Source: Strigamia acuminata (Eukaryota). Taken from it: a stretch of 64,000 nt of DNA. Of this stretch, positions 2,114 to 63,629 are shown in pieces. Every line of letters starts with the position of its first letter. Within the stretch, counting starts at the first letter, position 1. The notes beneath the pieces are model-generated. The model ran no database searches and was not told the origin of the DNA. It worked only from the letters and a program-made list of their open reading frames with translations. The stretch covers positions 8,246,001-8,310,000 of the forward strand of contig OX442314.1 in NCBI GenBank assembly GCA_949358305.1, given 5' to 3'. The translations under genes and the position numbers were made by a program.

Positions 2114-3518
2114 TGTTGCGATCCTCCGGGCTTTCCACTCTGAAACAAATACTTACCTTGTTTTGAGCGGTTCGCAATTGAGATGCCGTTTATAGGCCTT
2201 ATACTCGGTTGCCTGTGTGGTGTCTAGGGGTAATTTTATGAAAGGAAAACGATAGTTTGGATTGAATAAAATACAAAAATCTTTTATTTGAATGGAAATT
2301 TACAAATATAATTATGAGAAATATAATTATTACATTTACTAAGAATTATGAATTTAGTAGTTAAAACTAGGGAGAGAAAACAAGAAAATGAGTGAGAAAT
2401 GAGAAATGAGTCAAGCGAAACGGTTACGCTCACTTGAAACAAAGGAAAAAGGTGCCAACAACGACGGTTGATCGTTGGGCGCGAGTGTTTGGCGCGCAAC
2501 AAACGGCAGCCTGTTGCGCTCGGAAAATGGCGAGTAGGACTCGCCTGAGAAATATTATTTCTCGTTGAAGAACAGCTACTTTTATCTGTAAACTCCGGAG
2601 TAAAGCTCGCAGGTGGTTTACAGATAGCGGCGACGATTCTCTACGAGAAGTTTGCCGTTGACGACGACGATGAGTCTCGGAACAAGTCGGACGAGACTCA
2701 CAATGGTTGACAACGAGCGGGTACAAATTCCTTCGCTCGTTCGATGGCGATGAACAGTGAACTCCGGAGTAAAGCTCGCAGGTGGTTCACTGTCTTCTCA
2801 CGAAGGTTGACGGCGACGGGTTGCTCGATCGACGGAGGCGAATCACGGAACAAGTCAACGCGACTCGACGGCGGCGGGTGAGCGGAGTTTCTCGGGCGTT
2901 ACCCGAAATCCGATGCCTGTGCGCAAATGTGGCTGGTTCCACCGAAATCTATTCTTTGGAAACAGCAATGTCTCTTAACTCACCAAAACGTGTAAACCCG
3001 GTCAGCACTTCGAATCCTTGTTTGAAGTTCTTTCGTGATGATCATGTGGGTTGTTTGTTGTTGGTGTGTTGTGTCAAGAGTGGGCCAAACCGCCAAAATT
3101 TGGGGTTTTATGCACTCTCGAAATCTGCGCACAAAATATGTGCAGATTACTAATTTTGGCACAACAAAGGATTTTGTTGCGCCAAAAGCCGTTATTATTG
3201 CACCATAACCGTTGGCTAAAGAAAGGGTGGCGTGTGCCAAGCACGCTTCAAATATGCGCAGCGGATGCTGCGCAGACGTCTTAATTTAGTGAGACAAAGG
3301 ATTTTGCCTCACTAAGCGGTTAATTAACGCCTCACCCCACACAATATTGGGGTGAGCCGTGCTAGGGGAGGATTTTCTCCCCTAATTATGTAATCGTTTG
3401 GCGTGTGCCAAACATAAATATTACCAAAATAAAATGTAAATACAACTTCTTTTGTGGTGACTCTTTTATTAAATAAAACACAACCGCAATTGAATAAAAG
3501 TGGCTCAGGGTCACCACA
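2114..3518 (-). mobile_element. Solo LTR (1405 bp) of a Gypsy-like family inserted in the BEL/Pao remnant
   Basis: Minus strand starts TGTGGTGACC and ends GGATCGCAACA (TG...CA). It is flanked by a CTCG direct repeat (2110-2113, 3519-3522). Removing it restores the BEL reading ..KKLKRV-TAWTFRF. Its termini resemble the LTR at 6958 (TGTGGTGACC...GGATCGCCGCA). Confidence 0.85.
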
Positions 3519-4045
3519 CTCGTTTCAGCTTTTTCCACGTACTAAATCGAGTATAATCGATGTCTGGTTCCGCAATTGTTATCAATGTCATATTCACTTC
3601 CATGTCATCGTCCTCGATGTTTGGATTCACGTTCACGTCTTCATTTGGCCATTTTGATTCGATGTCTGCTAGCCATGCCGGTCTTTTCAACCAGAATGGT
3701 TCTTTGGTAAGTTGTTTCACGTTCACTCCCCTCGTAACCAGGTTGGCTGGGTTGTCCTTCCCTGGGCAATGGCGCCAATCGTCTCTTGATGTATTTTCGA
3801 CAATTTCCCGCACACGATTGTACACGAACGTCGCTGGTCGGTTCTTGGTGTCGCGGATCCAATGTAAAACTATCTTTGAGTCGGTCCAAATCGTGAAGTC
3901 CTCACATCCGAGCGTTGTCTTTAAAGTTGAGATTAGTCTTGATGCTAGTAAAGCACCCATCAGCTCCAACTTTGGCAGTGTTAACTATTTAACTGGTGCG
4001 ACTCTACACTTTGAAATAACAAAATCAACATTAACCTTCCCATAG
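3519..4045 (-). pseudogene. BEL/Pao pol remnant (RNase H-like region)
   Basis: LELMGALLASRL..WTDSKIVLHWI..FVYNRVREI..WRHCPGKDNPANLVTRG..FW are typical BEL/Pao motifs. The region is truncated upstream. Confidence 0.9.
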
Positions 4046-4214
4046 CCATGGTGGGTCAAAAAAATTACACTGTAATACTTTTTTTCCTGAAAATTAATTA
4101 ATGAGGTTAACATTTATTCCTCAAAAATCTTTTTTTCTTATTTTATAATGTCTAAATACAAATAGTTTTTCAATTATTATTAAGATAATTTAATATTTAC
4201 AAGTATTTGAAGTT

Positions 4215-5150
4215 TTTGTGCCTATAAAATGAGATTTTTTGTGGATATAAAATGAGTTTTTGGGCTATAAAATTAGGTTTTGTGGCTATAAAATGAGTTT
4301 TTGTGGCTATAAAATGAGGTTTTGTGGCTATAAAATGAGGTTTTGTGGCAATAAAAAGAGTTTTTGTGGCTATAAAATCAGTTTTTGGGCTATAAAATTA
4401 GGTTTTGTGGCTATAAAATGAGTTTTTGTGGCTATAAAATCAGTTTTTGGGCTATAAAATTAGGCTCAAAAAAGTGGTTTTCATCAAAAAACCAGTAAGG
4501 TTAGGTTCGCGGGGGGTCAAGGGGGGGGGGCGCAGCCCCCCTTGTTAGCCCTTCTTAGGAATTAAACCTAGGTTTTTGTGTCGCTAAAATGACGTGTTCG
4601 CTAAAATGGTGTGTCGCTAAAATGAAATCACTAAAATGAAATTGCTAAAATGATGTACATCCGATTTTGTTGCTATAAAATGAGATTTATGTGGCTATAA
4701 AATGAAGTTTTGTGGCTATAAAGTGAGTTTCTGTGGCCATAAAATGAGGTTTTGCGGCTCTAAAGTGAGTTTTTGTGGCTATAAAGTGAGTTTCTGCAGC
4801 CATAAAATGAGTTTTCAGGCTATAAAATGAGTTTTTTGGCTATACAATGTGTTTTTGTGGCTATAAAAAGAGGTTTTGTGGCAATAAAAAGAGTTGTTGT
4901 GGCTATAAAATGAGTTTTTGGGCTATAAAATTAGGTTTTGTGGCTATAAAATGAGTTTTTGTGGCTATAAAATGAGGTTTTGTGGCTATAAAATGAGGTT
5001 TTGTGGCTATAAAGTGAGTTTTTGTGGCTATAAAGTGAGTTTCTGCGGCCATAAAATGAGTTTTCAGGCTATAAAATGAGTTTTTTGGCTATACAATGTG
5101 TTTTTGTGGCGTTAAAATGAGGTTTTGTGCCTATAAAATGAGATTTGTTG
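4215..5150. repeat. Minisatellite, ~20-21 bp unit (GTGGCTATAAAATGAGTTTTT), interrupted at ~4465-4663
   Basis: Dozens of directly visible copies of the unit. The interruption contains a G-rich motif and CGCTAAAATG repeats. Confidence 0.9.
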
Positions 5151-6460
5151 TGCACAGGAGAAATTATCTGGAGTGGTGTAAGGGCCATAAAAATTAGCTT
5201 GTTGGTTAATGAAAGAAAATATATTCAGTTATGAATCATATGTGGGTGTGTTGGTAGTGCAAGTGATTATGGAAAATTTTTTTGGTGTAGAATGGATGAG
5301 AAATTGAAAAATAAGTGTTTGTTTAAAACAGTAGTAAAATTTCAACAATCATTCACATTGCATGTTATGAAATAAGACAAGCTAGATGTATATTGTCAAA
5401 ACATCAGATATACAAATATTCTCAGATATTATTGAATTCCTTTTATTACACATGATTGGAGAAAAATTTAGTGAATCTGATCTGCCAGATCTGCAGACAT
5501 TGGCAACACTTTCTAATCATTTACAATTGTCTCAGTTGTATAAAATGGTGCTCTGGGCATGTCCACTTGTATTTTTAATCTCTATTGAGAGATTTTAGTT
5601 TGAAAATTGGCAAACTTTTTGTTAAAAATGTGACAAATGTAAGAAAATTTTAAAAATATGTGCGAAATTGCTGAAAATTTTAAAAGATTTGACATATTTT
5701 GACAAAATTAAAAAAAAAATTTTAAAAATATACATTTACTTGTGAAAATTTTAATTGATTACCAGAAAAAATATGAAATAGCAATAAAAAAATACATTAA
5801 AACCATACCCTTGACACGTGCGAGACAAAGTTTTTATAAATTACCATATTTTTTATTTAACTTTTTTACATTTTTTTTTATAATTTTTTTTATTATTTCA
5901 AGTTTTTTTAATTTTTTCAAATTTTTAACAAATAAATGCATTTTCAGGCAATAAAAAAATTATTCACACAAAAAATAACATTTAAAAAAAAAAGAAATCC
6001 ATTTTATGACAGATGGATGAAATTGCCTGAGAAATTACGAGAAATTAAAGAAATATTTGAAAATTTTGAAGGAATTTGAACATTTTTGAAACAATTTTGA
6101 GAAAACTTGAAAAACTTAATATTATAAAAAACTTATAATAAAAATTATAAAATTTTTGTCTCGTGTCAGATATAGTTTTAATCTATTTTTTTTATTGCTA
6201 TTTCATATTTACTCTGATAATCAACAGTCAATAAATTCTAATTAATAAAAATATTAAAATATAAAGTGTCGCATCAAATCAATTGAATAGGATTAATCAA
6301 ACCCCATTCATATTCCAAAACTTGTCCATTAAATATTAATTACCTCTCTCTCTCCATATAAACTGTATCGCAACTACGGCAGTGACATCACAATCGAGCA
6401 CAGCAGATCTTCCACAAGCCACCAGTCAACTTTTTTCTTCCACGAGAGCATCCGTCGAAA

Positions 6461-6709: not shown

Positions 6710-6957
6710 TTTTAACAATTTTAAAATTAATGTAATTAACTGAAACAAAATAAAAATTTAAAATGATAAGAATATTGTTTTTATAATTGATTCATTTACT
6801 TTGTGCCATGCCTGGCACTACCCGAGTGGTGTTTCTCGCTTTTTGTCGTCGTTTTCGTCACCACAGGTCTGGTCATGTGGTGCCGACCGGTCTCCGCCTA
6901 GCGGCTACCTGAGAAAATTTTAAAAATGTTGAAAAATTGAAAATATTTGAGATAAAT

Positions 6958-8035
6958 TGTGGTGACCTCAAATATTCCTATTTGAGTGCGCACCATATTT
7001 CCAAATTGTCTTATAAACATATTCAACAAACTTATATGTTTTGTTTCAATGTAAATTGAAATAAAACATACATTAATAAAATATAAAACAAGACACAATA
7101 TTACCCAAATAATATTGTGTTTTGCAGCAAGTTTTGGCCCAGCAACAGCGTCAACCAATCGCGCTGCAGCGTGCATTGCTTTGATGATGCTGCTAGGCGT
7201 GTGCCTGGGCGGAGCATCCCTTCCCCTCGCGCGTGCCCGGCTCGATTGTTGCACACGACCCGAAGGCGGCCGTGTGTGATCTTCATGCAACTCGTCATCT
7301 GCGCAGCTTTTCTGAGCAGATTTAGAAGTGAGCCAAACGGTTTTGGCCCACTCTTCCCGCACTCTTGATTCCACCTCCAAACTGTTCACAACCGTGTCAA
7401 ACTTCTGCCAAAACTGCAAAGTGTGATCTGTGATTCTTGGACGAATTGAGTTTCATCGCTGGTCTGTACCCACTGTACGGAATAGCAACTTTCTAGCTTG
7501 AATTACTACGAGTAATTTAAGCCATTTCTGTGTGTGAAACTAACATCGAGTTTACTCTGTTAGTTTGAAGGCTTTGTGTCGAGTTTAACTCCACAAGGCG
7601 AATTGTGTTAAGACGGATTGTTACGTCGAGCTTGCTCCGTAATAATCAAATCGCTGTGTGCAAGACGTATTCTCGTGTTGAGCTTGCTCCGCGAGGATTT
7701 TTAGTATATTTTAGCAAAGTATTTTAGCGTCGAGTTTACTCCGCTAAAATCCCGCGCTCACACGACGCCATCGACGCCATTTTGGAGCCAACGGTCAACT
7801 GTGAGTGTCCAAGTACGAAGAGAAACCAGATCGACCCAGTCATTACACTTATTATTTCGCATTATATTCGGGTGTATTTAAAACGATTAAAACAATCTAA
7901 TTTTTCCTTTACTCTGTGTAAAATCATTCCCCTAGACAACCATTTGGCCACAGAGTAGAAGTCCTGTACGGCATCTCACCGACGATTGCTTATTAAATTT
8001 ATATAATTTAATAAGTAAAAACCCGGATCGCCGCA
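6958..8035 (+). repeat. 5' LTR (1078 bp)
   Basis: Direct repeat of 18711-19788. I noticed only one substitution (7478 C vs 19231 G). Confidence 0.95.
7537..7750 (+). promoter_or_regulatory. Array of five bulged stem-loops in the LTR (copy at 19290-19503)
   Basis: Hairpins at 7537-7566, 7571-7599, 7616-7647, 7669-7698 and 7721-7750. Each has an 8-10 bp lower stem of different sequence, a 2-nt UC/UU bulge, and GAGY-loop-RCUC. The function is inferred. Confidence 0.7.
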
Positions 8036-8037
8036 CT

Positions 8038-8055
8038 TGGGGGCCCGGCCGGGAT
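8038..8055 (+). promoter_or_regulatory. Primer-binding site, tRNA-Pro-like
   Basis: TGGGGGCCCGGCCGGGAT begins after a 2-nt spacer (CT) following the LTR. It matches the classical tRNA-Pro PBS TGGGGGCTCGTCCGGGAT at 16/18 positions. Confidence 0.8.
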
Positions 8056-8127
8056 TGTTTTGATTATTAAAATCCGATTTTTGCGAAAAAATCCTTTATT
8101 TCCATTGTTCTTTTTCAATTTGACAAA

Positions 8128-11019
8128 ATGGCGACGCCAATGCAAATTGTAAAACGACAACGAGGTCGACCAAGCACTCAGAAACGAGCAGCGACGGTTT
8201 TGCCGGCTCTCGAGCCTGAAATGCTTATGGAGAAAATTATTTCTGAAGAAATAACACCAGTTCCAGATCCGAAACAACTTAAGGATGCTGAAAATGAAGT
8301 TGCTAGAGCATTAAGCGCTTCAAGTGCGAGTTCTAACGACCAAGAACTCCCGCCACTTCCACTGGAGGAAGTGGAAAATACGTTACGTGAAATGGAAAGT
8401 GAATCGTCTCACGAATCACCTCCTCGCATGACCATGTTGGATGCTTTGAGAAATCAAGCACGCCAAGATGGCGCCCAAATAACGGACGACATGACGGTGG
8501 AAGAGATTCATCGCGCCATGATACGACTTCACACTGACCGAGCCGTTTCAAATTTACAATTTGAAATGGAACGAAAAGAAGCTGAGCTTCAACAACAAAA
8601 AGCGGAGGTTGAGCTTCAACACATGGAACTCAATCGACAAAATGAGGAATTTCTAGCCCAAAAAGCTAGAGAATACAGATTAAAAGGTGAAGTGGAAGAT
8701 CTTTCTAAAATGAATACTAGAAATGAACTTTCAATTCGCTCACACCAAGAGGCGCGAAGACAGCTCGAGCTTACCAAAAGTAAGCTGGAGCAGAAAAATA
8801 AAGAATTGATTGATTTGGCAGACCACTACCAACGCAATCATAATCAACTAGTGAGATATGCTGCTGAATTAGACACACGTGCTAAAACACAGCGTACTCG
8901 CGAAAGCAAAATAGCTAAGCGTGAAGACGAGATTTTCCACTCGCTGGATCAACCCAGTACGAGCGGACAAGTCAAGTCTAGCGGCCCTGCTAAGCGATTA
9001 CAACCAGAATCGCAAAATCAAATAAACGAGAATGAAATTCTCCGAGCTGATTTGTTACGCGCTCAAGAAGAGCTTGCAGAAATGAAAGACCGTTTGCAAG
9101 CAAGAAATTATACTGACCAATTGGTGCAACCAGAAATGGCTGCGCCAACTGTCCCTATTTTGACTCCCGAAACAATAACAATTTCTGTTGTTTCAGAGTT
9201 AAGTAGCCAATCTGGATTATCGAGTGATGACGACCAACGTTCGCGTCGTCGCCATCGCTCAAAAAGAAAACGTCCTTCAGATTCTGAGGAACGGAGAGCT
9301 GATCGCAATCCGCTCCCTGGTAATCGAAACCCTATTTTTCACAACAGTGACCGACTGTTGGGGATAGTAGACGATCGAAATAGACGGCATGAAACTGGTA
9401 TTCATGTTACTCGAACGATACCACTGACTCAACAGCAAGACTCGTCAAAAAGAAGTCGACGAGACACCAATCCAACACGCGAACCGCCGGACGGACATGA
9501 AAGCCCGCCAGGTGGGGGTCAGTATAGAAGAAATCCACCAGATGGAGGAAATCCAGATGGACATGGAGATGGACCACCTGGAGGTGGACGTCGACCGCCC
9601 GACGATGACGGCGACCCACCCGACCCACCTGAAACACCACATTTTAACACGCCTTCAAATTCACAATCTGATTCAAGGTCGGATTCTGATGTGAATGCGC
9701 AACAAGAACGCGATAATCGACATCGATCTCATCGACGTCGACATCGAGGCCATTCTTCTCGGCGTAATACACATTATTACACTGCTGAAGAAATTGATCG
9801 ATTATTAGCTGATCGTCGATCTTCCGATCGATCTGACGCTACTGCCGATAATGCTGATATTGCATTACGACAAAAAATTGCACAATATACTGCCAACAAC
9901 TGGACTCACGATCTAGTTGATGAAAGAACTATTAGATGGGATCACATCAAACCCGCTTTATTCGATGGAGAATGGGAAGCTGGATCCACTCTTTTAGATG
10001 AAGTGTTACGAATTTCAAGGTTGAATGGCATTGCATGTCACACTGCTTTGAAAAGAGTAGTACCAAAAGCTCTTATAGATCGAGCTGAGAAATGGTTTTA
10101 TTCTAAACAATTTCAAAACTGGAATCACTTTGTAGAGGAATTCATGACTGAATATGGGGAGTCAAGTGAAGACTTACTACAAATGTGGGATAATCTTTCT
10201 CAAAATAAAGGCGAAAGTCTTCGCTCTTATTTAAGAAGGACTGAGGATTTATTGGTCACTCTCCCTTATACAATGGGAGATGCAGCCATTGATCGTCAAT
10301 TCCGACGTGGATTGACAGATTATTCAAAAAATGTTCTACTTTCAGTACGAGCACCTTATCCGGGTGGTTTCGCTGAATTAGCCAAATTTATGCGAGCCAA
10401 TCAAATAAGGATTGACGAAAATTATAAAGCTTATCTACCAGCTGATGAAAAAGTTGCGTACGCTAAGCGACAGCAACGGAGAAAGGAATTAGCAAAAGAC
10501 ACACGTTTTGCTAACACCCCTCTTTTGCAACCCCCAAAACGAGGAGATTTTTTGGCAGAGACTGCTAAGGAATCTAAAAAGGGATCGGATGGGAAAAATC
10601 CACATCCAACCCCTAAAGCTCACTTAGCCGAAGTGACTGAAATGGAAACTGCTTCTGAACCAGAGAAATCTGACTCGGAACCAGAAAGCGAGGCTGCAGC
10701 TGCTTTATTAGCCCGTAATAACGCAGTAGCTCGAAAATTTGGACCAAAGATGGCGCCTAAAAACGTTACTTTTGGTTCACCAAAGACAGACGCGCTCAGT
10801 AGATCGAAGTCGCCGACCCCTAAAAAGGACGAAGCCAAACGTTCAAGTTCGCCTTCGCCAAAAGTCGCGAAATCGCCTGCTACTGACCCGTGTAATATTT
10901 GTAAAAAATTGGGACATTGGGCTAAAGAATGTCCTGATAGGAAATCGAGCAAAGACAAGATCATTGAGGAGTTCGAAAAATCGATGAAATCAATCGGCGA
11001 GCTTCTAAAAAACTTGTAA
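8128..11019 (+). CDS. gag: Gag polyprotein (963 aa)
   Basis: CCHC zinc knuckle CNICKKLGHWAKEC. Capsid-like segment LIDRAEKWF..WNHFVEEF..QNKGESLRSYLRR. Long N-terminal coiled-coil-like and low-complexity regions. Confidence 0.92.
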   Translation: MATPMQIVKRQRGRPSTQKRAATVLPALEPEMLMEKIISEEITPVPDPKQLKDAENEVARALSASSASSNDQELPPLPLEEVENTLREMESESSHESPPRMTMLDALRNQARQDGAQITDDMTVEEIHRAMIRLHTDRAVSNLQFEMERKEAELQQQKAEVELQHMELNRQNEEFLAQKAREYRLKGEVEDLSKMNTRNELSIRSHQEARRQLELTKSKLEQKNKELIDLADHYQRNHNQLVRYAAELDTRAKTQRTRESKIAKREDEIFHSLDQPSTSGQVKSSGPAKRLQPESQNQINENEILRADLLRAQEELAEMKDRLQARNYTDQLVQPEMAAPTVPILTPETITISVVSELSSQSGLSSDDDQRSRRRHRSKRKRPSDSEERRADRNPLPGNRNPIFHNSDRLLGIVDDRNRRHETGIHVTRTIPLTQQQDSSKRSRRDTNPTREPPDGHESPPGGGQYRRNPPDGGNPDGHGDGPPGGGRRPPDDDGDPPDPPETPHFNTPSNSQSDSRSDSDVNAQQERDNRHRSHRRRHRGHSSRRNTHYYTAEEIDRLLADRRSSDRSDATADNADIALRQKIAQYTANNWTHDLVDERTIRWDHIKPALFDGEWEAGSTLLDEVLRISRLNGIACHTALKRVVPKALIDRAEKWFYSKQFQNWNHFVEEFMTEYGESSEDLLQMWDNLSQNKGESLRSYLRRTEDLLVTLPYTMGDAAIDRQFRRGLTDYSKNVLLSVRAPYPGGFAELAKFMRANQIRIDENYKAYLPADEKVAYAKRQQRRKELAKDTRFANTPLLQPPKRGDFLAETAKESKKGSDGKNPHPTPKAHLAEVTEMETASEPEKSDSEPESEAAAALLARNNAVARKFGPKMAPKNVTFGSPKTDALSRSKSPTPKKDEAKRSSSPSPKVAKSPATDPCNICKKLGHWAKECPDRKSSKDKIIEEFEKSMKSIGELLKNL

Positions 11020-11052
11020 GCGCGCATCCAGACGGTCTAGTGGATGCGACGC
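11007..11052 (+). promoter_or_regulatory. -1 programmed ribosomal frameshift signal (gag-pol)
   Basis: A_AAA_AAC heptamer in the gag frame (11007-11013), followed by the hairpin CGCATCCA (11023-11030)/TGGATGCG (11041-11048). The -1 frame is open into pol (..KLVSAHPDGLVDATP). Confidence 0.85.
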
Positions 11053-14000
11053 CTACCGCCTCGGAAAATGAACTAACACCATCTCAGATTTTAGATGAAT
11101 TTTTAAATACCCAGATTAAATTAGAATTAGAAAATAATTTAGTATTTCCAAAAATTGATGTTTCCAGTTTAAGGCTTGTGCTGCAAAATGAAAACATCAC
11201 TGAAGAATTTTTTAAAGAAAAAGTTCAACAAATAAAAGTTGATTGGGAATCTAAAATAAAAGATGCTGTTACTTTACTAGATGGAAAAGCTAGGCCCACA
11301 CCTGAAATTGTTGAAAGGTCAGGTAAAATTGATTTACCTGGTCTTGATGAATGCATTGAAAAATTAATGGCTACAACGCTAGTCACTAATGATTTATTGG
11401 ACGAATTACCATTGGATCCGCCAATAGAAATTAAGCCACCGCGACGTTTTAAATGCAAGTACGCGGACATACCAAACAGCAATGATTTGCCGACGATTCG
11501 ATTGCAGACGGCAAACGGTATGATAACAGGGATGTTAGACTCTGGAGCTAATCGAAGCTTCATGGCCTACTCCGTAGTAATTTCGCTGAAACTGGAAGAT
11601 GAAATTCGACCAATAGGACCGGATGTGAGAGTTACGACTGCTTCAGAAGATGTAGTCCCTGAAGGGACTCTCCTACTTTCTTTTGCATGGACACACGGGA
11701 TGTTAAGTCATCCATTCATAATTTTAAGAAATAAATATCCTATTATTTTATTAGGATGTGATTTCATGAATCGACTCAATATTCAACCAAATCCTAAGAC
11801 CATGTCTTGGAATTTTGTCAAGTCTTTGAAAGAAGATTTACCTTTTGTTCCTCAAGCGATTCTTGATCGTTATCAAGAGTTTCTTGATCCACCCGAAGAA
11901 ATCATGAAACGCGACTTTATTAAAGCAAATCACATGAAAGCTGGTTCCGCCACTGCATGTCAAGCTAAAGTTGCCGATGAAGAAAATATAGTACAAAGAC
12001 TTGTTAGGGATGCTAATTTGTCAATGGAAAATAATTTAATGCTTGAAAAAGTATTAAAGAAACATGAAAAGATTTTATCTCGCCGACCAGGTAGAACACA
12101 CCTCGTTAGGCATGAAATTAAACTGGACACTAAAGTTCCTATTAGAGTTCCGTTTAAAAGCGTAAATCCACAGAAACGTGAAATTATCCGTCAAATCTGT
12201 CAAGATATGTTGGATAATGGGTACGTCGAACAAGCCACTGGAGACTATGGAATGCGAATAGTTCTAGTGATGCGTCCGGATTGTGATCCGAGACTCTGCA
12301 TTGATTTTAGACCACTCAATGCACATACATTATACGATTTTCCTCAAATGCCGAGCATTGAGGAAATCTTGCGAGAACTCGGAAGATTTGAATGGGTCAC
12401 AACGATAGATTTGTCAAAAGGCTATTGGCAGATAGAGGTTCATCCGAACGACCGTGCTAAAACTGCGTTTTGGAGCCCTTTGGGTCGACTACAATTTCGA
12501 GTCATGCCCTTTGGCCTCGTAAATGCACCGTCAACTTTTCAAAAGTTGATAGAGAAGATTTTGGGGGACGCCTATCGAAAATTCGCATGGGCATACCTCG
12601 ATGATATAATTATTATATCAAAAAATTTTGAAGAACACATGATTCATCTGGAAGAAATTCTGAGTAAACTTGAAAATGCAAATCTTCATGTTCATCCAGA
12701 AAAATCAAAATTTGGCAGAAAAGAATTAACTTTTCTTGGCTACAAGTTAAGTGTTCACGGAGTTAGTGTCGACCCTAAAAAAGTCGCCGCCATTAAAGAA
12801 ATGCCAGCTCCTTCAAATTTGAAAGAGTTGCAAAGATTTTTGGGAATGGTGAACTTTTTTCACCGATTACTTAAAAATCTGGCAGTAATGACAGAACCTC
12901 TACGTCCTTTACTCAAAAAGGATGTGGAATTTATTTGGTCAGAAATTCATCAAGAAGCTTTTGATCAAATAAAAGATGCTTTAACGAATGCAGAAACAAT
13001 GGCCATGCCTGATTTGACAGAACCATTTATTGTGCATACCGACGCCAGCAGAAAAGGACTAGGCGCCGCGCTTATGCAAATGAGAGAAATCGATGATCAA
13101 AATATCGAAGTGCCTTGTGTTTATGCCAGCAGAAGTTTACAACCTGCTGAGATAAATTACAGCGCCACAGAATTGGAGTGCCTAGCGGTAATCTGGGCAT
13201 TACGTAAATTTCGACATTATTTGGAATTTACAACATTCATAGTAAGGACTGACCATCAAGCATTAAAATGGTTGATGCAGTTGGACGAACCTGCTGGAAG
13301 GTTAGCGCGTTGGCAAATGGAGCTAATGCGCTACTCTTTCGAAATACAATATATTAAAGGTCCACTAAATGTTTTAGCGGATGCTTTATCCAGATCACCG
13401 ATTGATAAACCAGAAAATCCTGAAGATGATGGAGATAATGACGAATTATTATCTTACTGTCCATCACCACAACGAAAATGGAAAATGGGAAAATTCCATG
13501 AGCTTCCTGTCTCCACATTAGAGGAAAAGGAAGATCATGAATTCGTCAACTATTGGACTAAAATTTATGACTCCTCTGAGGAATCAGATGACGTCATAAG
13601 AGCGCAAATTTCAAGGAAATTCCAAGTTCCTTCGTCAAATGTTTTAATAAAAGCATTTGTCGCCAAAATTGTAGAACGTCTTGATTGTGAACCTCCCACA
13701 AGGGAAGACATAATCAAGGCCCAAAAAGAAGATAAAGTTTGCCAATTGATGCGTAATTTTTTAAATTGTAATCAATTTCCGCCTGACGTCACAACGCGAC
13801 TCCAGAGGAAACAATATAGAAAACACGCAACCACCTTCTTAATTGAAGATGACTTATTAATGCAATTTCATCCCACAATGTCTGATGAATTGGGGGAGGA
13901 TGGGAGAGCACTCAAAGTTTTTGTACCTCAGACATTGAAGTATAAAATTATTTGGCTGATGCATGGCCACCCACTTTCTGGCCACCCAGGAATTGCAAGG

Positions 14001-15488
14001 ACTCTTTATCGAGCACGCCGAATTTATACCTGGAAAGGCATGAAATCGGACATTACGAGATTCATTCGACATTGTGAGCGTTGTCAAGCTTGCAAACCTC
14101 GAACGAAAGGACAAATTGAAGCAGCGCAAATGGGTCCTTACAGCCCATTTGACTGTCTAAGTGTTGATTTGACCGGCCCAAAACCTCGGACGCGCAAAAA
14201 CAACACACATATTTTAGTCATACTTGATGTGGCAACTCATTGGCCAGAATTATATCCAATGTGTAACCCCACTGCTGGAAAAGTAGCAAATTGCATTTAT
14301 CACCTTTCCATGAGCATGGGATTCCCTCGTAAAATTATTTCTGACAACGGCCCGCAATTTCGTGCCCAAGTCTTTAAAAAATTTTGTGAAAAGTTCAAGA
14401 TGGTTCCAACACCAACTTCAACGTATCACCCACAAGCTAACCCGGTTGAAAGGGTTAACCGTGACATCAAATATTTGGTTGCAATTTATTCATCTGTTCA
14501 TTCCAAATGGGACGAATATTTGCGTGAATTTGCATTTAGTTTGAGAACTACGGTGACGAGAGGAAGAGACTTCTCTCCCGCATTTCTTAACTTTTTTCGC
14601 GAACTCAGAGTACCTTGGGATCCAAGAATACCTGAAGGAATTTTGGTCGTAGATCCAAAAAACCCACATTTATACGTGCAAAAATTAGAAGCCGTTATCG
14701 CCGAAACATATCAGCACATGATGTCGCACGTGTTAGATTTGCGTAGACGAGTTAATCTTAAAAAAGAAGGTGAGAAGTTCTCCAATTTTAAATTAAACGA
14801 TTTAGTTTGGAGAGATTCTCATGTTTTGTCGAGCGCTGCCCGCGGCATTGCAGCTGGCATCGCTGATAAAAGAACAGGACCTTATGTAATAACCAAAGTA
14901 TTACAGGGAGGTTCAGTAGAATTGAGAAAGCTAGAAAATAACGAAATATTTCCAGCTGTCCATTCGTCTGAATTAACTCCGTATTTCCCGAGTTTCGACC
15001 AGGAAGTATGGTTAGAAGGCGAAGAAGTCGGTCAAAAGACTGAAAATATAATTAATACGTTAGATGACGATGAATTAAAGAAAATACCTGTCGATAATTC
15101 ATCCAAACCACAAATGGAGTCAGACCTCGTGAATAACGACGTTGAACTTCGTGACAGTTTCAAAAAGCTTGAAATTGCTAAAAAAATAAATAAAAAGGTG
15201 TTTTTAGAAAAGAAACAAAAAACATCTGAAATAAAAGACTCATCTGACTCAGTCTCCGATGACAATGAAGACGGCGATTTAAATACAATAAATCCCTCGC
15301 CGACAAAGAGATATAATCTTCGGACTCGTAAACCGAGAGGAAAAAACAACATGTGTCTTCTCCCCTCGATAACCTCGAGATCCAGGGATCAGCCGTATGA
15401 CGTAAGGAGCAATTCCTCAAGCCATACTCAAACCAATCAAACAGTAAGATTGGATGACGTCACTAACAGCGACGTTACCCAAACGTAA
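11013..15488 (+). CDS. pol: Pol polyprotein (protease, RT, RNase H, integrase), expressed by frameshift
   Basis: LDSGA aspartic protease; RT IDLSKGYWQ..MPFGL..YLDD; RNase H TDASRKG..ELECLA..TDH..ADALSR; integrase H..H..CERC, D..D(SDNG)..E and GPY motif. No stops. Confidence 0.97.
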   Translation, partial: LVSAHPDGLVDATPTASENELTPSQILDEFLNTQIKLELENNLVFPKIDVSSLRLVLQNENITEEFFKEKVQQIKVDWESKIKDAVTLLDGKARPTPEIVERSGKIDLPGLDECIEKLMATTLVTNDLLDELPLDPPIEIKPPRRFKCKYADIPNSNDLPTIRLQTANGMITGMLDSGANRSFMAYSVVISLKLEDEIRPIGPDVRVTTASEDVVPEGTLLLSFAWTHGMLSHPFIILRNKYPIILLGCDFMNRLNIQPNPKTMSWNFVKSLKEDLPFVPQAILDRYQEFLDPPEEIMKRDFIKANHMKAGSATACQAKVADEENIVQRLVRDANLSMENNLMLEKVLKKHEKILSRRPGRTHLVRHEIKLDTKVPIRVPFKSVNPQKREIIRQICQDMLDNGYVEQATGDYGMRIVLVMRPDCDPRLCIDFRPLNAHTLYDFPQMPSIEEILRELGRFEWVTTIDLSKGYWQIEVHPNDRAKTAFWSPLGRLQFRVMPFGLVNAPSTFQKLIEKILGDAYRKFAWAYLDDIIIISKNFEEHMIHLEEILSKLENANLHVHPEKSKFGRKELTFLGYKLSVHGVSVDPKKVAAIKEMPAPSNLKELQRFLGMVNFFHRLLKNLAVMTEPLRPLLKKDVEFIWSEIHQEAFDQIKDALTNAETMAMPDLTEPFIVHTDASRKGLGAALMQMREIDDQNIEVPCVYASRSLQPAEINYSATELECLAVIWALRKFRHYLEFTTFIVRTDHQALKWLMQLDEPAGRLARWQMELMRYSFEIQYIKGPLNVLADALSRSPIDKPENPEDDGDNDELLSYCPSPQRKWKMGKFHELPVSTLEEKEDHEFVNYWTKIYDSSEESDDVIRAQISRKFQVPSSNVLIKAFVAKIVERLDCEPPTREDIIKAQKEDKVCQLMRNFLNCNQFPPDVTTRLQRKQYRKHATTFLIEDDLLMQFHPTMSDELGEDGRALKVFVPQTLKYKIIWLMHGHPLSGHPGIARTLYRARRIYTWKGMKSDITRFIRHCERCQACKPRTKGQIEAAQMGPYSPFDCLSVDLTGPKPRTRKNNTHILVILDVATHWPELYPMCNPTAGKVANCIYHLSMSMGFPRKIISDNGPQFRAQVFKKFCEKFKMVPTPTSTYHPQANPVERVNRDIKYLVAIYSSVHSKWDEYLREFAFSLRTTVTRGRDFSPAFLNFFRELRVPWDPRIPEGILVVDPKNPHLYVQKLEAVIAETYQHMMSHVLDLRRRVNLKKEGEKFSNFKLNDLVWRDSHVLSSAARGIAAGIADKRTGPYVITKVLQGGSVELRKLENNEIFPAVHSSELTPYFPSFDQEVWLEGEEVGQKTENIINTLDDDELKKIPVDNSSKPQMESDLVNNDVELRDSFKKLEIAKKINKKVFLEKKQKTSEIKDSSDSVSDDNEDGDLNTINPSPTKRYNLRTRKPRGKNNMCLLPSITSRSRDQPYDVRSNSSSHTQTNQTVRLDDVTNSDVTQT

Positions 15489-15698
15489 CTTCCGGTATTT
15501 GAACTGATCACTTCGCGTCTGAGTTCACTTCGATCTCACACGTGTGCTAAGTGCTCATCCCCAAAAAACCAAAAGCGAAACAACTGGATTATTTCAACGG
15601 GATTCTTCAATTGTAAGTAGTTTTTTCTTTGGAATTTTCCAAGGAAAAACTAATAAATTAATTTTCGTTTTTCTTTTCCATTTGGATTAGTCGTTCAA

Positions 15699-18536
15699 AT
15701 GGAAGGAGAGGAACCGAAAGAAGGAAGCGAAGCCGGCGCCAACAGCCTCGAATTAGAAACAAATTCGACGCTGCTTGGTTCCGCAAACACTTCGAATGCA
15801 TCCGTGGATGTCACCGAAGAGTCCGCCGAAGCGTCCGCTGAAGCTCAAGCCGCTCTAGCCGACGCTGCTGCCCGTTTGCCAGTCACGCCGTCTCAGCCCC
15901 GACTTCGAGGAGGCCTATTCGCCGATCCAAACGGCGAAACTCGTGCACAGAGACACGACCGGGTAAATAATTTAAAATAAAATTACCTTTCAGTCATGAA
16001 AAGTAATTAAAAGTGCATTTTCACTCCGAAAAAGCAAAAAGTTCGTTGGTAACGCCTTCGCAAGAAGACGCCGCCATTATTATCATCAGATGGCGCTGTG
16101 TCTCATTTTTGAGGCGTTGCTACGGTAACGCTCCAAACACTGAAACATAGCCGTCGGAAACAACGTTTTTTACGATTTTTCAAATATTTTGAAAAAATTT
16201 AATGAATCTAAACTGTCGAATGAAATCTCACCCGTGATTTTATTCACTGAAAATTCGGAAATAATTATTTTACACGAAAAAATGGATTTTAATTATTTCT
16301 TCGAATATTTTTACAGATTATCCAGCTTCGGGAGACGCATCTCGAACTACACCCCGATGTTCCGACCGCTCCTGGTGTCTGGCGACACGCATTGCCGCCA
16401 GAAATCATAAAGTCGAAAGGACGACTGACGTTTTGGGCGGCCCGACACAAATTCTCCAAGGCCTTAAACAAGCGATGGGGAACGAAGTTTCGGATCGCCT
16501 ATTTAATCGATGGATTCGGTCATCGCGACGCCCTCGAGTGGGCAATGAAGCGCGACACCTTCGGACCACTGCGAAACGTGTTGCTCGACTTCGCCTTCAC
16601 AGTGATCGCACAAGAAACGCGAGACCATCGCCGTTACTTCAACGCTCCTGCATGGGAGCGTCGACAGATTTTGGAGGACATTTTCCAACGCTTGGATCAA
16701 ACCAAGGCCGAGGTTGTACGCCTCTACAACGAATCTTTCCGTGTAACAACGGACGGAAAGAAACGTTGGGTGCCGACATGCCAGTCGGAGATGCATCAAC
16801 TAGCCATGGGCGGATGTTTCCATGCAGATTTCGTGCCGAACCCGTATCCAGAGCCTGAGCCCCGGGTACAGGTCGCTTCCACCATCCACGTGGTGCCACC
16901 GCGCTCCACGTCGAGGTCACGATCATCGAGGTCGCCCTACAGTGGCCGTCGCTCCTCCCCAACACAGTCGTCGGGGGAAGGCGCCATTGGAGGGTTACCT
17001 CCACTCCAGAAGGCTCGTCATCGCTCACATCACCGACGCGAGCCGACGCCGCCGAAAAGACATTCGAAGTCCGTATCGAGACCCACATCCCGAAGCCGAC
17101 CTCGAGTGCAATCGCGTCAATCTTCCACGAGGAGTTCACTCTCGTCGCGTGAAGAACGATCCAACGCTTCACAGCTTACCGCTTCCTCCTCCGGCCGGAT
17201 TGACTGGTCGGACGAGATAGCGAAGGAAGATCAACGCATCGCCGCATTGCAAGCCGGTCAGGGAGACGTTAACACCTCTTTGCCGTTCGCTTGCCGTCCA
17301 GTCACCAGCGACATGCGACCAGATCCATCGGTGCCCGTGCCACAAGTGACATCGGTCATCCGTTTTGAGGGATACGTCTCTCACGAACCATTTCCCGCAC
17401 AGGAGTGCGCTGATCTCTGGAGGCGATTCTCATCGTTTCCCGAGACAGCCCAAACGATGTACCTCGCGCATCTGGACGAATACCAACTCGCTCAGATCCG
17501 CGAAGGTGAGAAGGAATGGCAATGGCTTGCGCGAGAGCTTACGTCGTGCAAGTCCGACAAGCAACTGCAACGGACGCTGCAGAAGATGAACAGGAAGTTG
17601 TCGGAGGGACTTCTTCGAATCCTGTTCCAAGGAGTCTTTCCCGACCCACAGATTGCTCTGGCCGCCGCCACTCGATTGTGGACCGTGCCGCTAGGGCTTC
17701 CACGAGCCTTGCTGGACGATTGGGAGTCAGTTCGCCCCGATCCTCCAACGATGCTCGCCGAATTGACGCAACAAGCCGAGGCGACTGGCGAAACTCCGGC
17801 TGGATCCGCCATTCGACTACGGCAGGAATGGGCTGCGCTGAAGCAGCGACGCACAGCAGAACGAGCCACCGCCCGTCCCGCTGGCGCACCACCGTCATCC
17901 GCAGCTCCACTCCACGCTGCCATCACGGCAACGTCGAGTGTTTCCCGTGCGACCGAGGCACCGAGTTGCAACATCTCGTCTCCGATGGAATGGCTCGACA
18001 GCGACGATCGCGAGTTCGTCGTGCCTGTGGCCTGCGGTGCCAGACCAAAGACGCGCACCCCGGCTTTACGCAGATCCAGATCCCTCTCGATCTGCAAGAA
18101 GTCGCCGCCACCGCCGCCTCCTCCAAAGGATTCGCCGCCAAGAGATAGGGGATCGAGTATGGCCACCCACCTCACCGCCTATCAACGTTTGCGCTCATTA
18201 TACGCCTTTTGCTACATAACGAGCGCAACGAAAACGATTCTCCAGAACAGCGAGGATTTATGCAACCGAGTCCTCGCGTGGCTGGAAAACCACATCAAGG
18301 AACAGCAGCCGTGGATCCTGCATCAACGCCTGGTGTTCGCTCGAATTACGCCTCAAGACCCGCAGGAGTACTTCGAGATGGGTTTTGGACGAAGGGATGG
18401 TGTGGACCGCATCAAGCAAGTGTGGCTCCACATCAACCCTGGCTTCCGGTCAGGACCAAACGCCGGCCGACCTTTGTGCACCGTCACCGAGCACAAAGAT
18501 CCAAACGATCATTCGACGGACATGTTGCCGAAATAA
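15699..18536 (+). CDS. ORF3, spliced non-env accessory protein of unknown function (~827 aa; exons 15699-15962, 16317-18536)
   Basis: A phase-0 donor CGG|GTAAAT at 15962 and acceptor TTTTACAG|ATT at 16317 join the 93-aa and 714-aa ORFs in frame. The frame is open from 16317 to 18536. There is also a probable 5'UTR intron at 15613-15690. Confidence 0.72.
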
Positions 18537-18696
18537 TTAGGGAACACGCCCGTTTATTAAAAATGATTCCTTTTTTATTTTTATATTGTAATGAAAAAGA
18601 ATAAATATATATCCTGTTTCATTTTACTTTGAAACCTTGTGTATTTATTCCTATACTTACCTGTCTCTTTTTGGAAAAGAATAAGATTCTTTCTTA

Positions 18697-18710
18697 AAAG
18701 GGGGGGGAAG
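18697..18710 (+). promoter_or_regulatory. Polypurine tract
   Basis: AAAGGGGGGGGAAG immediately precedes the 3' LTR. Confidence 0.9.
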
Positions 18711-19788
18711 TGTGGTGACCTCAAATATTCCTATTTGAGTGCGCACCATATTTCCAAATTGTCTTATAAACATATTCAACAAACTTATATGTTTTGTTTC
18801 AATGTAAATTGAAATAAAACATACATTAATAAAATATAAAACAAGACACAATATTACCCAAATAATATTGTGTTTTGCAGCAAGTTTTGGCCCAGCAACA
18901 GCGTCAACCAATCGCGCTGCAGCGTGCATTGCTTTGATGATGCTGCTAGGCGTGTGCCTGGGCGGAGCATCCCTTCCCCTCGCGCGTGCCCGGCTCGATT
19001 GTTGCACACGACCCGAAGGCGGCCGTGTGTGATCTTCATGCAACTCGTCATCTGCGCAGCTTTTCTGAGCAGATTTAGAAGTGAGCCAAACGGTTTTGGC
19101 CCACTCTTCCCGCACTCTTGATTCCACCTCCAAACTGTTCACAACCGTGTCAAACTTCTGCCAAAACTGCAAAGTGTGATCTGTGATTCTTGGACGAATT
19201 GAGTTTCATCGCTGGTCTGTACCCACTGTAGGGAATAGCAACTTTCTAGCTTGAATTACTACGAGTAATTTAAGCCATTTCTGTGTGTGAAACTAACATC
19301 GAGTTTACTCTGTTAGTTTGAAGGCTTTGTGTCGAGTTTAACTCCACAAGGCGAATTGTGTTAAGACGGATTGTTACGTCGAGCTTGCTCCGTAATAATC
19401 AAATCGCTGTGTGCAAGACGTATTCTCGTGTTGAGCTTGCTCCGCGAGGATTTTTAGTATATTTTAGCAAAGTATTTTAGCGTCGAGTTTACTCCGCTAA
19501 AATCCCGCGCTCACACGACGCCATCGACGCCATTTTGGAGCCAACGGTCAACTGTGAGTGTCCAAGTACGAAGAGAAACCAGATCGACCCAGTCATTACA
19601 CTTATTATTTCGCATTATATTCGGGTGTATTTAAAACGATTAAAACAATCTAATTTTTCCTTTACTCTGTGTAAAATCATTCCCCTAGACAACCATTTGG
19701 CCACAGAGTAGAAGTCCTGTACGGCATCTCACCGACGATTGCTTATTAAATTTATATAATTTAATAAGTAAAAACCCGGATCGCCGCA
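18711..19788 (+). repeat. 3' LTR (1078 bp)
   Basis: Direct repeat of 6958-8035. Confidence 0.95.
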
Positions 19789-20515
19789 CTATATCAAAAA
19801 ATGTTTGAAAAGACAGGAGTAGGAGCAGACCAACCTTGAATATTCTGCGCTTTTATTATCTTCTGGGTATGAATCACACTCAGAAGATAATAATATCAAC
19901 ATTTATGATAATCATGCTCAAGAAATTGCAGAAATTTGTAAAAAAAATTGAACACACTTTGGAAAAATTTAACGACTTGTTAAATGCCAAGCAAATTTAG
20001 CACAACCTCCATTTGGACATTTTATTAAATTGTAATAATTTGTTGAGTTGCAGGAATAAAAAATAATTTTTTATTCATTTTAGATGTTTGAATATTGAAC
20101 CTTTCTCCACCTACACAGCTCCGTCTAGCGGCCAGTTGAAAACATATGGAAAAATGTCAAAAAATTTCAGAAAATCTAAAAAAAATGGCCTTAAATTTTT
20201 CACATATTTTTCCAGAATGATAAAAATGAACAAACTGAACACTTGAACAAATCAGAAAAATCTTGATCAATTTGCCCACCTGTATGTCAAACAGGGTTTC
20301 TATTCTATTTTTCTTATTGCCAATTAAAATTAACATCAAAATTTGTAGTGTCTCATAAAATCAATTGAAGAAAAGAAAATTCCAGCGACGGCCATTAAAT
20401 AAACATAATTACCTTTCTCTCTCTCTCCACATAATACCGTAGTCCAACTAAAGCAAACAAGACTTCCAACAATCCACCAGTCAACTTATTTCTCCTTCAA
20501 AGGGATCCATCCAAA

Positions 20516-23625: not shown

Positions 23626-23697
23626 TAGCAGAGGATGGTTTCGATCCATCGGCCTCTGGGTTATGGGCCCAGCACGCTTCCACTGCGCCACTCTGCT
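23626..23697 (-). tRNA. tRNA-iMet(CAT), eukaryotic initiator
   Basis: AGCAGAGTGGCGCAGTGGAAGCGTGCTGGGCCCATAACCCAGAGGCCGATGGATCGAAACCATCCTCTGCTA. A1:U72 pair, GGG/CCC anticodon stem, ATCGAAA T-loop, and a downstream oligo-T terminator. Confidence 0.96.
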
Positions 23698-60558: not shown

Positions 60559-60965
60559 CTAGAAAGACAAATAAAAAAAAATTTCCAAAATTAATAACTC
60601 AAAAATTAAAAAAAATAAATAAATAATAATATAAATTCACTTGGAAGTGACATTTCCTGTTCTATGTTGACTGTTGGCATTTTGATTTAAGCCTATTTCT
60701 GGATTTGCGAAAACATTTGTTGTTGATATGACAAGTGCATGATACGGTGTATTACAACTCACACAATGTCAAGATGAAAGCAAATCAATAGACTTCTGCA
60801 ATGGCACAACAAACCAATATTCTTTTCATCAAAATCCAAAAAATAATAACAAACCAAACCCACACATTAACGCTCACATTTTAGATACAAAAATGTACAT
60901 TTTAGATACAAAAATGGACTTTTTAGATACAAAAATGCACTTTTTAGCTGAAAAATGCACTCTTA

Positions 60966-61991: not shown

Positions 61992-62012
61992 TTAGTCACA
62001 AAAATGTACTTA

Positions 62013-63016: not shown

Positions 63017-63629
63017 TTAGTAGACAGAGAAACTGCTATTTAGACACAAAAATGCACAAATCTGTAACTCCCAACAAGAAAAATAATTTCTAGACATTTT
63101 TAAAAGTTTAAATGTCAGTTACAATCTACGAAGAAAATATATCATCAATTCTTCTGGCAGAAAAGCCAGAGGTCCAAGTCCAAACAGAACAAAAGCTTCA
63201 TTTTTAATATTATCAACAGCAAACTGTGTAGAGATGATTGGAAATTGGAATTCGAGACCCTTGCTGAAATGATTCTCCTCCAGAGACGAGAACCAAGATG
63301 CCATCAGTCCACAAGTGTGCTTTCTCTTGGCAATCAATCATGCCCAAAGGTTTCAAACTTCAAACCACAAGCAATACTAGACCTCCAAGCAGCTGAGAAT
63401 ACAAAAGTCCAACAAACTCCAGAACCGACAACTTCCTAAATATGTCGAACGGTTAACGGAACTTGTCGGATGTCCTCAAAAAAATAAAGTTATCATTAAA
63501 GGTCATGGGAAGAGAAAAATAAAAAATGAGGAGAAGATTGTTTGTGTCATTATTAGACCAAATCCATTGTTGAAACGTGTTCAATTGTTTCGAGATTGTT
63601 ATATCGTTCGTTTAAACGTTTGAAAATTC

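What the first reader, a model, noticed from the sequence alone, without database searches (positions are those of the whole stretch)
15613..18536. Intron-containing, non-env third gene inside an intact Gypsy element
Seen: downstream of pol are a 78-nt GT-AG intron (15613-15690) just before ATG 15699 and a 354-nt phase-0 intron (15963-16316), which together give an ~827-aa protein. I see no signal peptide or transmembrane segment, so it is not an errantivirus-type Env. It has an acidic N-terminus, Trp-rich helical-looking blocks, an Arg/Ser-rich tract (RSTSRSRSSRSPYSGRRSSP..KARHRSHHRREPTPPKRHSK) and poly-Pro. The exons are visibly GC-richer than gag/pol, while the introns are AT-rich. Sense-strand spliceosomal introns retained in a retroelement imply that unspliced genomic RNA is selectively protected or exported.
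Basis: partly seen in the sequence, partly recalled or inferred. Interest (0 to 1): 0.82.

Follow-up and report, generated by a model that had tools for sequence, protein, structure and literature searches.

The report
Spliced orphan gene inside Gypsy retrotransposon
A young, intact Gypsy retrotransposon carries, where retroviruses keep their envelope gene, an intron-split gene with no relatives found in the databases searched, which is likely kept by selection and most likely encodes a nuclear regulator that would help the element's own full-length RNA escape splicing.

Summary
The gene is real; its function is inferred. The element (6956-19790) has LTRs differing at 2 of 1082 bases, intact gag and pol, and a third gene whose two exons give 827 residues with no hydrophobic segment. 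One contig in a public run joins the exons across exactly the predicted 354-nt intron (one of two runs, 28 letters on the short side). Among related copies, 6 of 7 listed exon substitutions are silent and 4 of 4 listed indels lie in the introns. The 78-nt intron has good signals but no junction was seen. No homologue or fold was found, but gag also finds none, so the lineage is poorly sampled. Best reading (about 0.35): an early, fully spliced regulator that protects or exports genomic RNA, working like CERV of C. elegans Cer1 without being its homologue. Rivals: transactivator or anti-silencing factor, host-directed cargo (weak Bcl-2 hit). What stays odd is that both introns are non-coding yet are kept in nearly all sequence laid. 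The scan noted similar spliced non-env third genes in other genomes. New variant of a known kind; interest 0.58.

The parts
6956..8037 (+). 5' LTR, 1082 bp; AGT...ACT-type ends with a short imperfect inverted repeat (or TG...CA if the outer two bases are counted outside)
   Evidence: 2 differences from the 3' LTR
8038..8055 (+). primer-binding-site-like stretch starting TGG directly after the LTR; tRNA identity not tested
   Evidence: sequence
8128..11019 (+). gag, 963 aa: coiled-coil-like N-terminal part, Retrotrans_gag domain, one CCHC knuckle
10968..15488 (+). pol, PR-RT-RNaseH-IN, overlapping gag in the -1 frame; slippery-type heptamer at 11007 followed by a predicted hairpin
   Evidence: heptamer pattern recalled
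15488..15612 (+). spacer after pol: candidate internal promoter and ATG-free first exon; ETS-like 9-mer at 15488-15496, E-box at 15539, Inr-like hexamers at 15508 and 15525
   Evidence: motif consensus recalled, chosen after seeing the sequence
15613..15690 (+). intron 1 (5' UTR), 78 nt; its pyrimidine tract is predicted to pair with the start of the coding exon in a 25-bp stem, acceptor AG in the loop
   Evidence: no junction seen
15699..15962 (+). ORF3 first coding exon, 88 codons, acidic
   Evidence: (2 of 2 listed substitutions silent)
15963..16316 (+). intron 2, 354 nt, phase 0; structured; holds X-box-like (16116-16129), CTCF-like (16084-16096) and YY1-like (16072-16080) motifs
   Evidence: joint across it
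16317..18536 (+). ORF3 second coding exon, 739 codons: three predicted helical blocks separated by an Arg/Ser-rich tract and Ser/Pro-rich linkers with poly-Pro
   Evidence: (4 of 5 listed substitutions silent)
18537..18708 (+). AT-rich 3' UTR with an AATAAA at 18600 (predicted paired) and the polypurine tract before the 3' LTR
18709..19790 (+). 3' LTR

Best explanation
The element carries an intact 827-codon third gene split by a 354-nt intron that is likely removed by splicing, and the protein is most likely a nuclear regulator that would bind the element's own transcripts through its Arg/Ser-rich tract and keep the full-length genomic RNA unspliced or get it exported. Steps. (1) Shown in the sequence: open frame, splice signals, no membrane segment. 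(2) Supported by population data: purifying selection on both exons and a joint across intron 2. (3) Inferred: ORF3 has its own early mRNA, probably from a promoter in the spacer after pol, with enhancer-like motifs in intron 2; this would explain why non-coding introns are kept, since an intron-less copy would lose them. (4) Inferred: the first acceptor is held shut in full-length RNA by a hairpin. (5) Inferred by analogy with CERV and Rev: the protein made from the spliced mRNA then licenses export or stability of the intron-containing gag-pol/genomic RNA. Confidence that the gene is real, spliced and selected is about 0.9; the figure below is for the whole mechanism.
For: Selection: 6 of 7 listed exon substitutions silent against 0.34 expected for transitions, P about 0.007; gag 3 of 3 and pol 10 of 12 silent as controls (on the 40 of 280 rows shown). 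4 of 4 listed indels in the ORF3 span fall in the introns, which are 15% of it (12 of 29 rows shown). 9 of the 16 contig pieces shown lie in ORF3 exons at 9-13% difference, 8 of them without gaps, while the piece in intron 2 has 4 gaps. Splicing: joint 15962/16317, skip 354, GT..AG. Separate expression regime: codon use of exon 3 correlates -0.19 with gag and -0.30 with pol, while gag and pol correlate 0.79; GC3 0.61 against 0.31 and 0.33. Single exact ETS-like 9-mer of the window sits at the start of the spacer (0.27 expected in 64 kb); single X-box-like 14-mer sits in intron 2 (0.03 expected). Acceptor-1 tract is the most paired of 213 YAG tracts, 0.93 against 0.62 for T-rich tracts. RS/SR density 17 per 90 residues. 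Precedent: CERV lies in the env position of a Gypsy element, is made from a spliced mRNA, has three structured domains with flexible linkers and is needed for genomic RNA export (PMC10309623, sections read); internal promoters after pol are shown for Tor4b elements (PMC4402516, passages).
Against: No direct test of localisation, RNA binding or export was possible. No sequence likeness to anything, CERV included, among 1.84 billion representatives; no Cys cluster like the CERV loop (11 scattered Cys). No K-K/R-x-K/R nuclear signal and only one loose export-signal match. Intron 2 is structured (z -6.4) but ranks only 7 of 33 equal windows, so no special response element stands out; the whole element is hairpin-rich (mean z -2.4 against -0.2 in flanks). 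The acceptor-1 hairpin ranks 10 of 213 once corrected for composition, and 836 of 3000 random synonymous versions fold as well, so it may follow from the amino acids. Acceptor 2 is not specially paired (75 of 213). Promoter motifs were picked after seeing the sequence; the E-box count is at chance and no TATA box was found. The joint rests on one contig, one run, 28 letters on the short side at 85% likeness, below the tool's 31-letter bar, and the run's kind (DNA or RNA) is not on record. The different codon use fits a recent capture equally well.
Confidence: 0.35

Rival explanations
1. ORF3 is an early nuclear transactivator or anti-silencing factor. It would be made from the internal promoter and then switch on, or keep open, the LTR promoter, as foamy virus Tas does.
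For: Acidic N-terminus, basic tract and Pro-rich linkers suit a transcription regulator; candidate internal promoter; foamy viruses express Tas and Bet from an internal promoter through spliced mRNAs (PMC9143442, passages); two loose PxVxL-like matches (motif recalled).
Against: No DNA-binding family in Pfam or NCBIfam; the basic tract is RS-dipeptide-rich, which by recalled knowledge points to RNA processing; PxVxL-like matches are common by chance; one GW/WG only.
Confidence: 0.25
2. ORF3 is host-directed cargo, for example a survival factor that keeps element-bearing germ cells alive; its last helical block would be a remnant of a Bcl-2-type fold.
For: Pfam Bcl-2 (PF00452) matches the C-terminal block over profile positions 47-97 of 100, E 0.046 and 0.0093 after trimming; host-gene-like exon/intron anatomy and foreign codon use; bdelloid elements carry captured enzymes as ORF3 (PMC5408684, passages).
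Against: 16.9 bits against a cut-off of 31.4; 11 fragments were scanned, and trimming inflates the score; the first half of the profile is unmatched and poly-Pro lies there; no Bcl-2 chain at E up to 10 in the PDB sequence search; no C-terminal membrane anchor.
Confidence: 0.15
3. ORF3 is a particle-associated or transfer factor that helps capsids traffic or leave the cell without a fusion protein.
For: One PTAP motif near residue 104 and a poly-Pro run; gag has no such late-domain motif; non-Env transfer proteins exist in the env slot (sORF2, PMC13486581, passages).
Against: One PTAP in 827 residues of this composition is expected about one time in ten (my estimate from the counts); no membrane segment, unlike sORF2; the RS tract is unexplained.
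Confidence: 0.1
4. ORF3 is a recently captured passenger with no use to the element; the introns stay only because RNA structure blocks splicing of the genomic RNA.
For: Foreign codon use; element-wide hairpins; a deletion derivative that removes the ORF3 start exists at depth 1825 in one run.
Against: Silent-site excess equal to that of pol, indels confined to introns, gap-free exon pieces at 9-13% divergence.
Confidence: 0.07

Closest known systems
CERV of Cer1 (C. elegans Ty3/Gypsy element); PMC10309623 (abstract, Introduction and two sections read), PMC3315495 (passages read)
   Same: [quoted passage not shown]
   Different: CERV shares its first exons with gag, so its introns overlap coding sequence; here both introns lie after the pol stop and code for nothing. 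No sequence likeness, no Cys loop. CERV function is shown by mutants; here it is inferred.
Accessory-gene region of complex retroviruses: foamy virus Tas/Bet from an internal promoter, HIV Rev, HTLV Rex, MMTV Rem (PMC9143442, passages read)
   Same: 3' accessory gene, spliced mRNA, candidate internal promoter, Arg-rich protein.
   Different: No env; one 827-residue protein; no likeness in sequence; promoter and response element unproven here.
Tor3b/4b elements of Oikopleura (PMC4402516, passages read)
   Same: Third gene driven by an internal promoter that can lie in the spacer after pol.
   Different: Tor Env is a membrane glycoprotein and those transcripts showed no splicing.
Non-env ORF3s of bdelloid LTR elements and additional ORFs of plant elements (PMC5408684, PMC7264820, passages read)
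   Same: Family-specific third ORFs in the env slot, many of unknown function.
   Different: Those described are recognisable enzymes, membrane proteins or antisense ORFs; the word intron does not occur in either main text.
Errantivirus env-F (PMC12992720, passages read)
   Same: Position after pol and a strong acceptor just before the ORF.
   Different: No signal peptide, furin motif or membrane segment; an extra intron inside the coding region.
Penelope-like elements (10.1101/2021.04.23.441226, passages read)
   Same: Retroelements that keep spliceosomal introns, including a short 5' UTR intron overlapping an internal promoter.
   Different: Different class of retroelement and mechanism; single RT/EN gene.

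Membership tests
Ty3/Gypsy LTR retrotransposon | pol order PR-RT-RNaseH-IN | tested here: met
   protease 186-269 (weak), RT 448-594, RNase H 657-789, IN 986-1155
Ty3/Gypsy LTR retrotransposon | two LTRs, primer-binding site, polypurine tract, gag | tested here: met
   (Retrotrans_gag E 3e-9, CCHC)
Ty3/Gypsy LTR retrotransposon | target-site duplication | tested here: inconclusive
   best pair ATAA/ATAT, one mismatch
named Gypsy clade (osvaldo, mdg3, mdg1, gypsy, chimpo) | RT tree placement with named references | not testable with these tools
   tree has no named elements; nearest P0063 (unnamed), inside a group holding fly and bee proteins
errantivirus Env-F | signal peptide and C-terminal membrane segment | tested here: not met
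   highest 19-residue hydropathy 1.09; acidic N-terminus
errantivirus Env-F | furin site R-x-K/R-R | tested here: not met
   none in the exon-3 product
errantivirus Env-F | likeness to baculovirus F / gypsy Env | tested here: inconclusive
   no Pfam match at E up to 1; low-confidence models cannot exclude a remote fold
CERV (Cer1) | non-Env ORF in env position from a spliced mRNA | tested here: met
CERV (Cer1) | N-terminal exons shared with gag | tested here: inconclusive
   four in-frame (phase 1) donor candidates in gag among the top 20; no such joint among 15 of 26 shown
CERV (Cer1) | Cys-loop M domain | tested here: not met
   11 Cys, no cluster
CERV (Cer1) | G-protein-like domain | tested here: inconclusive
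   models are all-helical but low in confidence
CERV (Cer1) | nuclear protein required for genomic RNA export | not testable with these tools
   needs cell work
Rev/Rex/Rem-type export regulator | Arg-rich RNA-binding stretch | tested here: inconclusive
   Arg/Ser/His-rich tract present; binding untested
Rev/Rex/Rem-type export regulator | Leu-rich export signal | tested here: inconclusive
   one loose match near residue 784 (pattern recalled)
Rev/Rex/Rem-type export regulator | distinct structured response element in an intron | tested here: inconclusive
   intron 2 z -6.4 but rank 7 of 33; no Rfam match
foamy-type internal-promoter gene | capped transcript starting after pol | not testable with these tools
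   motifs only
Introner / MITE-derived intron | terminal repeats, target duplication, free copies elsewhere | tested here: not met
   only a 5-bp end pairing; no second copy in the window; depth over intron 2 not raised
Bcl-2 family | full helical-bundle profile above the curated score | tested here: inconclusive
   half-profile, 16.9 of 31.4 bits; no PDB sequence hit

The most novel reading that the evidence does not exclude
An env-less animal Gypsy element has independently evolved a complex-retrovirus programme: a host-like early gene with its own promoter and non-coding spliceosomal introns makes an SR-like protein that shuts off splicing of the element's genomic RNA; the introns survive reverse transcription because they carry the gene's enhancer, and the rare intron-less copies are dead ends. 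The family would be a natural, many-copy test of RNA-mediated intron loss.
Probability: 0.2. Interest if true: 0.82.

Novelty: new variant of a known kind. Interest (0 to 1): 0.58.

Why it matters
How env-less retrotransposons get intron-containing RNA out of the nucleus is worked out for few elements; the one clear Gypsy case I read about is CERV. An unrelated protein in the same slot would show that such regulators arise repeatedly. The anatomy adds a sharper question: both introns are non-coding, so nothing in gag or pol forces their retention, a copy made from spliced RNA would lose them for good, and a joint of that form exists; yet intron 2 is present in nearly all sequence laid and in a piece about 10% diverged. 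That makes the cost of intron loss measurable from existing long reads. The protein is also an orphan with three predicted helical domains.

Tried and rejected
Homologues of ORF3 exon 3: none in near-length search, none among 1.84 billion representatives at E up to 0.001, none in the Atlas, PDB sequences, metagenome or viral contigs, Pfam or NCBIfam above cut-off. Control: the gag capsid-knuckle region also found none and pol found none in metagenome contigs, so absence reflects poor sampling too. No likeness to the element's own gag. Folds: whole exon pLDDT 40, middle block pLDDT 66 in one of five models; no match at E up to 0.001 in PDB or viral libraries, best Z 7.0 among generic helical bundles; this shows neither a new fold nor absence. 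The 7rdr hit is a designed repeat protein whose score sums eight weak copies; rejected. No RNA holder was listed; no whole genome is held, so copies could not be read in full. Only 15 of 26 joints, 40 of 280 substitutions, 12 of 29 indels and 16 of 11,838 pieces were shown, so the intron-1 junction and any LTR- or gag-to-ORF3 junction stay open. Intron 2 as a unique Rev-response-like element: not singled out. A special hairpin on the gag donor at 8780: rank 272 of 499, dropped. A gag-end donor at 11016 is out of frame with both acceptors (phase worked out by hand). A private poly(A) site at 18600: AATAAA is common in pol and this one is predicted paired, lead only. The 15522/15832 GT..AG joint has poor splice signals and is better read as a diverged copy. 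A foamy-virus precedent for intron-less proviruses is recalled; the passages in PMC6950106 did not confirm it. Literature searches listed no paper on an animal Gypsy element with non-coding introns in a non-env third gene; the library holds only openly licensed papers and no supplements were read. PMC13524379 passages gave nothing on this.

Full report
What is there. The finding lies in a complete LTR retrotransposon. Its LTRs (6956-8037, 18709-19790) differ at 2 of 1082 bases, so the insertion is young. A primer-binding-site-like stretch follows the 5' LTR and a purine tract precedes the 3' LTR. gag (8128-11019) has a Retrotrans_gag domain and a CCHC knuckle; pol (10968-15488) has the order protease, RT, RNase H, integrase, which makes it Ty3/Gypsy. 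The RT-RNase H region is at most 45% identical to anything found. In a tree of the window's sequence and 92 of the 120 hits (those with a long RT match next to RNase H), it pairs with an unnamed protein, P0063, inside a group that holds fly and bee proteins. The host is therefore probably an arthropod; this is inferred, and no named clade could be assigned.

The observation. Exon 3 is open for 739 codons while its other five frames hold 8 to 20 stops, and intron 2 holds 10 stops in the ORF3 frame. The two acceptors rank first and second of 232 YAG sites by T-richness, and the intron-1 donor is the only GTRAGT between the LTRs. The protein has no hydrophobic segment and its exon-3 part has no furin motif.

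Is intron 2 spliced? Two public runs hold the family. Their kind is not on record; depth is flat over LTR, gag, pol, exons and introns, which looks like genomic DNA of a many-copy family. One contig of run X1 joins 15962 to 16317, skipping exactly 354 bases with GT..AG ends. The caveats are one contig, one run of two, 28 letters on the short side (below the tool's 31-letter bar), 85% likeness, and 'between: not known'. But both ends match a prediction made beforehand, which a stray joint in 13 kb would almost never do. If X1 is DNA, this is a copy made from spliced RNA; if RNA, a spliced transcript. Either way it supports the intron. Its depth (506) is under 1% of the depth over intron 2 (70,339); the tool warns that depth is no copy number, so this is a rough guide. 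No junction for intron 1 is among the 15 of 26 joints shown.

Is the gene selected? Of the 40 substitutions shown (of 280), 7 lie in ORF3 exons and 6 are silent, against 0.34 expected for transitions (P about 0.007); gag gives 3 of 3 and pol 10 of 12. Of 12 indels shown (of 29), 4 lie in the ORF3 span and all are in the introns; AT runs raise indel rates there, so this is supportive, not exact. Nine of the 16 pieces shown lie in ORF3 exons at 9-13% difference, 8 without gaps, while the piece in intron 2 has 4 gaps. ORF3 and intron 2 are thus shared with a diverged subfamily.

What is the protein? No relative was found by sequence, profile, language-model or fold search. The gag capsid region finds none either, so the lineage is thinly sampled and 'orphan' is weak evidence of novelty. 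Single-sequence models suggest three helical blocks joined by disordered linkers. The first linker has 17 RS/SR dipeptides in 90 residues, against at most 6 in gag. The last block gives a weak half-profile Bcl-2 match that the PDB sequence search did not back.

How is it expressed? Codon use of exon 3 is unrelated to that of gag and pol (r -0.19 and -0.30; gag to pol 0.79). The spacer after pol has no ATG and starts with the window's only exact ETS-like 9-mer; intron 2 holds the only X-box-like 14-mer and CTCF-like and YY1-like motifs. These motifs are recalled and were chosen after seeing the sequence; the E-box is at chance. They suggest, and do not show, an internal promoter, as mapped in Tor4b elements (PMC4402516, passages). 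An env-like route from the LTR donor at 7801, or a CERV-like route from in-frame gag donors, stays open.

How are the introns kept? Intron 2 folds well (z -6.4) but ranks 7 of 33 equal windows, because the whole element is hairpin-rich. The acceptor-1 tract is the most paired of 213, yet the hairpin is largely implied by the encoded residues (836 of 3000 synonymous versions fold as well). Cis structure may damp splicing, but no dedicated response element stands out.

Mechanism. The reading I favour (0.35) is an early, fully spliced regulator of the element's own RNA. The closest system is CERV of Cer1: a non-Env ORF in the env slot, made from a five-exon mRNA, nuclear, and required for export of unspliced genomic RNA (PMC10309623, abstract and three sections; PMC3315495, passages). 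ORF3 would work like CERV but is not filed as CERV: no likeness, no Cys loop, and its introns are non-coding. Rivals are a Tas-like transactivator or anti-silencing factor (0.25; PMC9143442, passages), host-directed cargo (0.15), a particle or transfer factor (0.10) and a neutral passenger (0.07).

Novelty. Non-env third ORFs are known in rotifers and plants (PMC5408684, PMC7264820, passages), spliced env in errantiviruses (PMC12992720), sORF2 in mdg1 elements (PMC13486581) and retained introns in Penelope-like elements (10.1101/2021.04.23.441226). The scan itself noted spliced non-env third genes in other genomes (unchecked notes), though none like this one in sequence. Searches listed no paper on non-coding introns inside such a gene in an animal Gypsy element; the library is limited to open papers and no supplements were read. 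Verdict: new variant of a known kind, interest 0.58; 0.82 if the two-phase programme is shown.

Noticed in passing
window 6956-18708: The whole element is far richer in local RNA hairpins than its flanks: mean z -2.4 over 78 windows (29 below -3) against -0.2 over 59 flank windows (2 below -3); antisense -2.0. It holds in gag and pol coding sequence too; strongest at 8756-8905. Resembles genome-scale ordered RNA structure of RNA viruses (recalled).
   Followed up: partly
window 13646-15820: A joint that drops most of integrase and the start of ORF3, depth 1825 in run X1 only: likely a non-autonomous deletion derivative.
   Followed up: no
window 18174-18326: Weak half-profile Pfam Bcl-2 match on the last helical block of ORF3, not backed by PDB sequence search.
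   Followed up: partly
window 8780, 9512, 9518, 10364: Donor-like sites in gag that are in frame with the ORF3 acceptor at 15690; splicing from them would fuse the coiled-coil-like start of gag to ORF3, as in CERV.
   Followed up: partly
window 6945-6957 and 19791-19810: The flanks are joined without the element in both runs, with two letters between; the insertion site has no perfect duplication.
   Followed up: no
window 730-3984 (- strand): Fragments of a Bel/Pao element (DUF5641, Peptidase_A17).
   Followed up: no
window 23626-23697 (- strand): tRNA-Met gene.
   Followed up: no
window 47806-48859, 60949-61996, 61997-63022: Three copies of a roughly 1-kb palindromic (foldback or MITE-like) element, two of them adjacent.
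   Followed up: no
window 4200-5200, 35500-36100, 39500-41500, 53900-55100, 59700-60500: Many AT-rich tandem arrays with 20-, 21-, 28-30- and 11-nt units.
   Followed up: no
whole window: CGCCATNWT occurs 13 times against 3.4 expected and a CTCF-like motif 5 times against 0.8.
   Followed up: no
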